Below are positions 4,601 to 6,107 of a stretch of DNA of 64,000 nucleotides, in pieces. The position numbers and the translations under genes were made by a program. The notes beneath the pieces are model-generated. The model saw only the letters and a list, made by a program, of their open reading frames with translations, was not told the origin of the DNA and made no database searches. The DNA comes from Saccostrea echinata (Eukaryota). The DNA lies in assembly GCF_033153115.1 (NCBI RefSeq), contig NW_026889758.1, forward strand, positions 11,470,001-11,534,000. The letters run 5' to 3'. Every line of letters starts with the position of its first letter. The stretch's first letter is position 1.

Positions 4601-6107
4601 GTGCCAGTGAATTAAATTTGTGCTATGGTTTTAGCTCATTTTTTTAGCTCACCTCAATTAAGTTTGGGGAGCTTATGTAATACCCTCGGCATTGGTGTGG
4701 GCGTCCCAGGTTAAAGTTTTTGGAGCAGATTTCTTTTCAAGTACTTCTATGCCCTATATTAATCAAAGATACATGGAGGATGCTTCTAGTGTGTTTCATT
4801 GTACCAATCAAGGTTTCAGATGCTGCAATTTTAGTTAAAGAATGACCAGGTTAATGTTTTTGGAGCAGGTTAAAATTTTTGAGCAGGTCTCATTCCCAAG
4901 TAACTATAAGCCCTATGCTAACCAAACTTGCATGGGTGATACACCTAAGGATGCACACTACCAGGCTTGCTTCGGATGCTTGATCTGACCTACATTTTCC
5001 GGATGAGTGACCAGGTTAAAGTTTTTGGAGCAGATCTTATTTGCAAGTAACTATAAGACTAATATTGACCAAGCTTGCATGGATAATACATCTAAGGATG
5101 CACACTACTGGACATGCTGGATGCTGGATCTGACTTATATTTTCAGAATGAGTGACCAGGTTAAAGTTTTTGGAGCAGGTCCATTGCCAAGAAACTATAA
5201 TGACTATCTGAACCAAACTTGCATGGATGGTGTATCAAGGGATAAACACTCTCAAACTTGCTTCAGATGTTGGATTTGACTTACATTTTCTGCTTGAGTG
5301 ACTAGTTTAAAGTTTTTGCTAAGTCTATTCCCAAGTAACTGCAAGGCCTTTCAGACCAAAATTGCATAAATGTTGCATCTAGGGATGCACACTACTAGAT
5401 TATTAGTTTAGTGTAGGACTTTGCCCTACTTTAAAACAACATTCATTGAGGTGAGCTCTGTAATCTCTGATTACCTATGTTTGTTAGAGCTAGAAAAATT
5501 ATGATAATGTTTATGGGAATGAATTGATTGCAGAAATATCCAGCAACTGGTTACAACAGTGGACAGGAGCTCCCCTGACATGTCTGTCTCTCTGATTAGA
5601 CCCATGGGAAATAGTACAGTGCTTCAGGTGAGTTATATAGATGTCATGTCTGTATCACTGATTAGACCCATGGGAAATAGTACAGTGCTTCAGGTGAGTT
5701 ATATAGATGTCATGTCTGTCTCTCTGATTAGACCCATGGGAAATAGTACAGTGCTTCAGGTGAGTTATATAGATGTCATGTCTGTATCACTGATAAGACC
5801 CATGGGAAATAGAACAGTGCTTCAGGTCAGTTATATAGATGTCATGTCTGTCTCACTGATTAGACCCATGGGAAATAGAACAGTGCTTCAGGTGAGTTAT
5901 ATAGATGTCATGTCTGTCTCTCTGATTAGATCCATGGGAAATAGAACAGTGCTTCAGGTGAGTTATATAGATGCCATGTCTGTCTCACTAATTAGACCCA
6001 TGGGAATTAGTACAGTGCTTCAGGTGAGTTACATAGATGTCATGTCTGTATCACTAATTAGATCCAGGGGACCCAGTACAATCTTTCAAATGAGTTATAC
6101 AGATGCC

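What the first reader, a model, noticed from the sequence alone, without database searches (positions are those of the whole stretch)
5580..6107. In-frame ladder of seven 5' splice sites could add 22-aa repeats to MED27
Seen: the unit is 66 nt (a multiple of 3), stop-free in the MED27 frame, and copies 1-7 keep CAG|GT (six GTGAGT, one GTCAGT). Using donor n would insert (VSYIDVMSVSLIRPMGNSTVLQ) n-1 times, up to +132 aa, into a conserved region. Only the 8th copy has lost the donor (CAA|ATGAG). Inference: either a variable-length Mediator subunit, or a test case for how the proximal site wins among identical donors.
Basis: partly seen in the sequence, partly recalled or inferred. Interest (0 to 1): 0.72.

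Follow-up and report, generated by a model that had tools for sequence, protein, structure and literature searches.

The report
Repeated splice donor in oyster MED27
A 66-base piece spanning the end of one exon of an oyster's Mediator gene MED27 is repeated head to tail into the next intron, giving six spare in-frame splice signals, but the main messenger RNA likely uses only the first signal, as in several human and lancelet genes with the same known kind of repeat.

Summary
The array is real: 8 copies of 66 nt (5579-6105), seven CAG|GT donors, in frame and stop-free. It is a tandem duplication of the MED27 exon 4/intron 4 boundary in a Saccostrea oyster. Splicing at donor 1 gives a 310-aa protein identical to the annotated S. 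echinata MED27; 0 of 26 homologs carry an insert. In 4 of 4 runs laid, one unbranched spliced contig runs 546-575 nt upstream of exon 5, which fits donor 1 (inferred; no RNA was laid over the array itself, and contigs drop minor forms). In-frame plus stop-free arises by chance in about 17% of possible units. The kind is known (human F7, CBS, 6-16; lancelet 'mirages'), and this scan noted it before in this genome and others. A minor +22/+44-aa form is not excluded. One oddity is unexplained: the distal copies differ from the exon at 7 synonymous and 1 non-synonymous site.

The parts
1658..15743 (+). MED27 gene, 8 coding exons: 1658-1848, 3757-3907, 4014-4147, 5534-5627, 10439-10546, 10994-11035, 12317-12394, 15609-15743
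   Evidence: Joined model is 310 aa and identical to P0001; single copy in G000; matches human MED27 chains at E 1.6e-75
5534..5627 (+). MED27 exon 4 (94 nt); its last 48-49 nt are the first, partial repeat copy; authentic donor after 5627, phase 0
5579..6105 (+). Near array: 66-nt unit (18 nt intron start + 48 nt exon end) x 8; spare donors at 5693, 5759, 5825, 5891, 5957, 6023; copy 8 has lost the donor
   Evidence: copies 2-7 are 94% alike
6108..8862 (+). HINE-type (non-autonomous Helentron-like) element with a 168-nt satellite core (6419-8042), inserted in a T run inside a decayed ninth repeat copy
   Evidence: 3368 first-look candidates in G000, 40 scored at 96-100%; 11 of 12 fetched loci hold the same 5' end behind a T run; terminal motif at 6129 and 8828 with a 3' palindrome; flanks rejoined match the unit at 44-45 of 66, 0 of 2000 shuffles as high
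8862..10170 (+). Far array: about 20 copies of the same unit, mostly 64-65 nt (one base lost at the donor, frame broken), decayed at both edges
   Evidence: TRF 8991-10169, period 65, 18.2 copies, 94%; 96% alike within, 77% to the near array, own branch 96/97
10439..10546 (+). MED27 exon 5, the acceptor partner of the donor ladder
   Evidence: Covered by one long spliced contig in 4 of 4 runs laid
11760..12352 (+). Mirror-image case in the same gene: 53-nt array of the exon 7 acceptor, six spare copies upstream of the real one at 12317
   Evidence: spliced joints skip 1281 nt to the last copy in 4 of 4 runs

Best explanation
This is a boundary-spanning intronic minisatellite made of head-to-tail copies of the MED27 exon 4/intron 4 junction, and the main mRNA likely leaves exon 4 at the first donor, so the spare donors are likely spliced out with the intron and add no regular protein forms. 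Shown: unit structure, donors, gene model, second array, transposon, use of the exon-nearest acceptor at exon 7. Inferred: (1) origin by a local duplication across the junction followed by slippage or unequal exchange; (2) choice of donor 1 by exon definition or 5'-to-3' scanning, which pairs the exon 4 acceptor with the nearest good donor (94-nt exon against 160-490 nt); (3) the downstream copies are probably usable if donor 1 is lost, and a trace of donor 2 or 3 use would escape nonsense-mediated decay because it is in frame; (4) the near copies are kept similar to the exon by continuing exchange, the far copies were homogenised separately, and the transposon landed later in the decayed zone between them.
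For: Donor 1 joined to 10439 gives 310 aa identical to the annotated protein, whose name carries no isoform tag and whose cluster has 2 members of 310 and 312 aa. 0 of 26 MED27 proteins over 200 aa carry an insert at this junction; the search covered 170-543 aa, which includes +22 to +132 aa forms. In 4 of 4 runs laid (of 9 listed) a single contig of 1565, 1461, 1762 and 1016 nt covers exon 5 and extends 567, 548, 575 and 546 nt upstream; the coding sequence upstream under donor 1 is 570 nt. Any mRNA from donors 2-7 would hold 6-121 duplicated 31-mers, which one unbranched de Bruijn contig cannot contain (property of such contigs recalled). At exon 7 the contigs skip six spare acceptors and use the exon-nearest one in 4 of 4 runs. 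In F7 only the most upstream of identical donors is used, and the next is used when it is mutated (PMC1557585 sections 6, 12). Lancelet mirages were reported not to disturb splicing (PMC3087553 passage). The unit copies residues 175-190, two strands of a predicted four-stranded sheet, and the junction falls inside strand 186-193 (low-confidence model, mean pLDDT 55, about 67-75 here).
Against: No RNA was laid over exon 4 or the array, and the upstream letters of the long contigs were not shown, so the exon 4-exon 5 junction is inferred from lengths and k-mer logic. Contigs drop rare variants; depths were only 10-69. Three of the four runs are only guessed to be RNA (they do show spliced joints) and X6 is probably another species (7 differences in 106 nt). 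Only P0001 is known to come from a genome with this gene sequence; the other homologs may have no array. The donors here are CAG|GTGAGT, which the F7 paper scores as a perfect site, the only class that did compete there (70-90% use against a weaker first site; section 9); equal perfect sites were not tested in the sections I read. Human 6-16 and CBS use two downstream sites.
Confidence: 0.85

Rival explanations
1. Leaky ladder of the 6-16/CBS type: donors 2 and 3 are used in a tenth or more of transcripts, giving MED27 with 22 or 44 extra residues that escape nonsense-mediated decay.
For: Spare donors are perfect-consensus and in frame. Two human precedents use the second and third sites. Donor 2 gives a 160-nt exon, an ordinary size. 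Contigs cannot exclude minor forms.
Against: No branch in four contigs; no insert in 26 proteins, no isoform tag on the annotated one; the insert would fall inside a predicted strand of a domain with no length change in molluscs or human.
Confidence: 0.1
2. A selected, functional length dial: the 66-nt period and open frame are kept by selection to make a variable-length Mediator subunit.
For: No indel and no stop in copies 2-8. The far copies differ from the exon mostly at synonymous sites, a hint of past coding constraint.
Against: In frame plus stop-free is expected in 16.7% of possible units. Copies 4-7 carry amino-acid changes. The far array has lost the frame (64-65 nt). Four other boundary arrays in the window are out of frame.
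Confidence: 0.03
3. Assembly artefact: collapsed or duplicated reads at an exon end.
For: No DNA reads were laid on the array.
Against: Copies differ by distinct, shared substitutions and form two homogenised groups with decayed edges; a transposon sits inside one copy; four similar arrays lie in the window.
Confidence: 0.02

Closest known systems
Human F7 intron 7 37-bp VNTR (Borensztajn et al. 2006, PMC1557585; seen: abstract, sections 6, 9, 12 and an Introduction passage)
   Same: First unit spans the exon-intron boundary; identical donors follow; the most upstream one is used.
   Different: Unit 66 nt and in frame for every donor; donors are perfect-consensus CAG|GTGAGT rather than the weaker F7 site; use of donor 1 is inferred here, not shown by RT-PCR; the array is split by a transposon.
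Human 6-16 (IFI6) and CBS intron 13 minisatellites; LMNB2 and PDGFA repeats (seen only as a passage in PMC1557585 and one in PMC4526556; the original 6-16 paper was not held)
   Same: Donor-reiterating minisatellites.
   Different: No use of downstream donors was seen here; LMNB2 and PDGFA, where only the authentic site is used, fit the data better.
Lancelet 'mirages' in Adh3, globins, troponin C, PGBD5 (PMC3087553 and PMC3902484; passages found by term search)
   Same: Minisatellite-like duplications of both 5' and 3' exon boundaries in a marine invertebrate, concerted evolution inside the cluster with divergent edge copies, normal splicing retained.
   Different: Here an oyster; one gene has both a donor and an acceptor array; allele-length variation was not tested.
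Cg_HINE elements of Crassostrea gigas (PMC7492417; passages found by term search)
   Same: For 6108-8862 only: 5' inverted repeat, short microsatellite, central satellite of about 170 nt, 3' subterminal repeat and palindrome, dispersed in the genome.
   Different: No sequence comparison with the published elements was made; the 66-nt unit itself is local to this gene, not HINE cargo.

Membership tests
Boundary-spanning minisatellite (F7-type / mirage) | Head-to-tail array whose terminal unit spans an exon-intron boundary | tested here: met
Boundary-spanning minisatellite (F7-type / mirage) | Splice signal reiterated in the intronic copies | tested here: met
   Six spare CAG|GT donors
Boundary-spanning minisatellite (F7-type / mirage) | Unit is local to the gene, not a dispersed repeat | tested here: met
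   All 25 matches in G000 lie in this intron or exon (only the best candidates are scored); MED27 is single-copy
Boundary-spanning minisatellite (F7-type / mirage) | Main transcript uses the exon-nearest (authentic) site | tested here: met
   Annotated protein identical to the donor-1 model; contig lengths and k-mer argument, inferred for exon 4; shown by joints for the exon 7 acceptor in 4 of 4 runs
Boundary-spanning minisatellite (F7-type / mirage) | Copy number varies between alleles | not testable with these tools
   One assembly, no second haplotype found; no oyster MED27 DNA in the metagenome collection
Leaky donor ladder (6-16/CBS type) | Second and third donors used in mature mRNA | tested here: inconclusive
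   No sign in contigs or proteins, but contigs drop minor forms and none was laid over the array
HINE (non-autonomous Helentron), for 6108-8862 | 5' subterminal repeat with inverted partner, central satellite, 3' subterminal repeat followed by a palindrome | tested here: met
   Sequence, 168-nt core, motif at 6129 and 8828, against the description in PMC7492417
HINE (non-autonomous Helentron), for 6108-8862 | Dispersed copies sharing the same end | tested here: met
HINE (non-autonomous Helentron), for 6108-8862 | Sequence kinship to published Cg_HINE or to an autonomous Helentron | not tested
   No published consensus was fetched

The most novel reading that the evidence does not exclude
The exon 4 end of oyster MED27 and its intronic array evolve as one unit: perfect, in-frame donors 2-3 yield a regular +22/+44-aa form of a core Mediator subunit with a duplicated beta-hairpin, and the far 65-nt array is a fossil of a second, protein-constrained version of the exon end (7 synonymous against 1 non-synonymous difference), left by an old divergent allele, introgression or former coding use.
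Probability: 0.1. Interest if true: 0.55.

Novelty: new member of a known kind. Interest (0 to 1): 0.2.

Why it matters
As it stands it is one more example of a known repeat type, useful as a natural test of donor choice among identical perfect-consensus sites where nonsense-mediated decay cannot hide leakage, a case that the F7 sections I read did not cover. If downstream donors were used regularly, a conserved Mediator subunit would vary in length by allele. If the synonymous bias of the far array holds, such arrays would keep a record of older exon sequences. The window also suggests these arrays are common in oyster genes (5 of 30 splice sites), which matters for annotation and for models of intron gain.

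Tried and rejected
Metagenome scan for oyster MED27 DNA: 111 pattern matches, none confirmed, so the far array's differences could not be polarised. A MED27 paralog or second haplotype as source of the far array: not found, all 7 matches are this gene's exons. The transposon as the cause of divergence between the two arrays: rejected; its 5' 153-154 nt are 100% identical to five other loci while the arrays differ by 23%, so it is likely younger. Enrichment of arrays at splice sites: not seen against all intronic positions (496 of 2041, 24%) or with the boundary arrays removed (316 of 1816, 17%); seen only after also removing transposon-satellite blocks (76 of 2029, 3.7%, P 0.005; random placement P 0.036), a choice made after the first result, with the finding itself among the five. 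The synonymous count for the GALK2 last-exon array was in the wrong frame and is not used. The 39-nt array at 41088-41322 looks intronic and away from exon ends. Runs X3, X4, X7, X8, X9 were listed but gave no data here. Literature: four searches for boundary-spanning repeats, one for an oyster case (only the lancelet paper) and one for MED27 isoforms (15 of 23 titles listed, none on such a form, none opened). No supplements were read.

Full report
Observation. The array is as described: 66-nt period, 8.0 copies, 92% matches, 5579-6105. Seven donors lie 66 nt apart from 5627 to 6023, six CAG|GTGAGT and one CAG|GTCAGT; the eighth is lost. The frame is open to 6186. Each unit is 18 nt of intron start plus 48 nt of exon end. 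The encoded repeats are not identical: copies 4-7 carry amino-acid changes.

The gene. Eight exons (1658-15743) joined at donor 1 give 310 aa, identical to P0001, the annotated MED27 of Saccostrea echinata. It matches human MED27 chains at E 1.6e-75 with no gap at this junction and is single-copy in G000. Of 28 proteins held at that point, the 26 over 200 aa were aligned (two short fragments left out); none has an insert at the exon 4/5 junction. Fourteen are oyster-type. This shows conserved length, but only P0001 is known to match this gene exactly. A low-confidence model (mean pLDDT 55, about 67-75 over residues 161-210) puts strands at 175-183, 186-193, 197-204 and 207-215. The unit copies residues 175-190, and an insert would fall inside the second strand.

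RNA. Nine runs were listed, all as contigs. Four were laid on 10200-12600. Each has one long spliced contig over exons 5, 6 and 7 (1565, 1461, 1762, 1016 nt; depth 28, 10, 69, 27) that extends 567, 548, 575 and 546 nt upstream of exon 5; donor 1 predicts 570 nt of coding sequence there. The alignments begin two bases before exon 5, as expected if the exon upstream ends in AG. An mRNA from donors 2-7 would hold 6-121 duplicated 31-mers, which a single de Bruijn contig cannot contain (recalled property, assuming k = 31 and an allele like the assembly's). So the main mRNA likely uses donor 1. Limits: the upstream letters were not displayed, no RNA was laid over exon 4 or the array, three runs are only guessed to be RNA, X6 is probably another species (7 differences in 106 nt), and contigs drop minor forms.

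A mirror case in the same gene is shown directly. The exon 7 acceptor has six spare copies upstream (53-nt unit, 11760-12352), and in 4 of 4 runs the joint skips 1281 nt to the last copy. With donors the first copy wins and with acceptors the last: in both the exon-nearest site, as exon definition predicts (inference from established knowledge).

Is the open frame special? Of 57,705 possible boundary-spanning units of 15-100 nt at the 15 donors of MED27 and GALK2, 16.7% are in frame and stop-free. Five of 30 splice sites in these two genes have such duplications, with periods 66, 53, 23, 19 and 56; one in five is in frame. Enrichment over background depends on the control: none against all intronic positions (24%) or without the boundary arrays (17%), P 0.005 after also removing transposon satellites (3.7%). 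That last control was chosen afterwards and the finding is among the five, so it is a lead only.

The same unit continues at 8862-10170 as about 20 copies, mostly 64-65 nt: 96% alike within, 77% to the near array, on their own branch (96/97). Between them lies a 2.75-kb element with the layout of an oyster HINE (PMC7492417, passages): inverted repeat at the 5' end, 168-nt satellite core, terminal motif and palindrome at the 3' end, 3368 first-look candidates in G000. Its flanks, rejoined, match one unit at 44-45 of 66 bases, above all 2000 shuffles. Its 5' end is 100% identical to five other loci, so it likely arrived after the two sub-arrays had diverged.

Unexplained. The commonest far unit differs from the exon's last 48 nt at 8 places, 7 synonymous and 1 not. 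If the array were neutral and only the exon constrained, P(7 or more of 8) is 0.007; third positions against the others give Fisher P 0.001. The exon 7 copies show the neutral pattern, 8 synonymous and 19 not when pooled (not independent, P 0.011 for the contrast). The test was made after noticing the pattern, on 48 bases. It could be chance, an old divergent allele or introgression with each array homogenised to its own exon, or former coding use. No orthologous DNA was found to decide.

What is known. Human F7 intron 7 has the same build; only the most upstream donor is used, and the next takes over when it is mutated (PMC1557585, abstract and sections 6, 12). The paper lists 6-16 and CBS, where two downstream sites are also used, and LMNB2 and PDGF, where they are not. 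It scores CAG/gtgagt as a perfect site, the one class that competed against a weaker first site (section 9); here all sites are equally perfect, so leakage stays possible. Lancelet 'mirages' are the invertebrate counterpart and reportedly leave splicing normal (PMC3087553 and PMC3902484, passages). One search for an oyster case found only the lancelet paper. Earlier notes of this scan describe the same kind in another gene of this genome and in at least eight windows of other genomes; they are unchecked and gave me the lancelet lead only.

Verdict. A real, ordinary boundary-spanning minisatellite; new member of a known kind. Donor 1 as the only major site 0.85, regular minor ladder 0.10, selected length dial 0.03, artefact 0.02. 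Interest 0.2.

Noticed in passing
window 8991-10169: Far 65-nt array differs from the real exon end at 7 synonymous and 1 non-synonymous site (P 0.007 under a neutral-array model, found after the fact); unexplained.
   Followed up: partly
window 11760-11917 and 12147-12352: 53-nt array of the MED27 exon 7 acceptor, in two blocks; RNA contigs use only the last copy in 4 of 4 runs.
   Followed up: yes
window 50220-50401, 53214-53251, 57617-57931: GALK2 (N-acetylgalactosamine kinase, 46277-58113, 9 exons, 437 identities to P0029) has two acceptor arrays (23 nt x 8, 56 nt x 5.6) and a 19-nt donor duplication; the homolog fits the exon-nearest copy each time.
   Followed up: partly
window 6108-8862; similar satellite blocks at 47932-48558 and 50994-52190: HINE-type elements with 168-182-nt satellite cores in introns; a 144-nt array at 4866-5399 in MED27 intron 3 may be another.
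   Followed up: partly
window 56088: My GALK2 model places a GC donor at intron 7; model-based only, not checked with RNA.
   Followed up: no
window 26380-27615 (+) and 31518-33182 (-): Two long single ORFs (411 and 554 aa) with similar N-terminal stretches, facing each other; probably paralogs, not identified.
   Followed up: no
window 39913-46088 (-): Exons that resemble mitochondrial ribosomal protein S30 (recalled likeness, no search run); a 39-nt x 6 array at 41088-41322 lies in one of its introns.
   Followed up: no
window 1900-2030 and 3380-3500: The two ends of MED27 intron 1 look like inverted copies of each other with 18-nt repeats, possibly a foldback-type element filling most of the intron.
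   Followed up: no
window 60886-62874 (+): ORF pieces that may belong to a caspase-like gene (recalled likeness, no search run).
   Followed up: no
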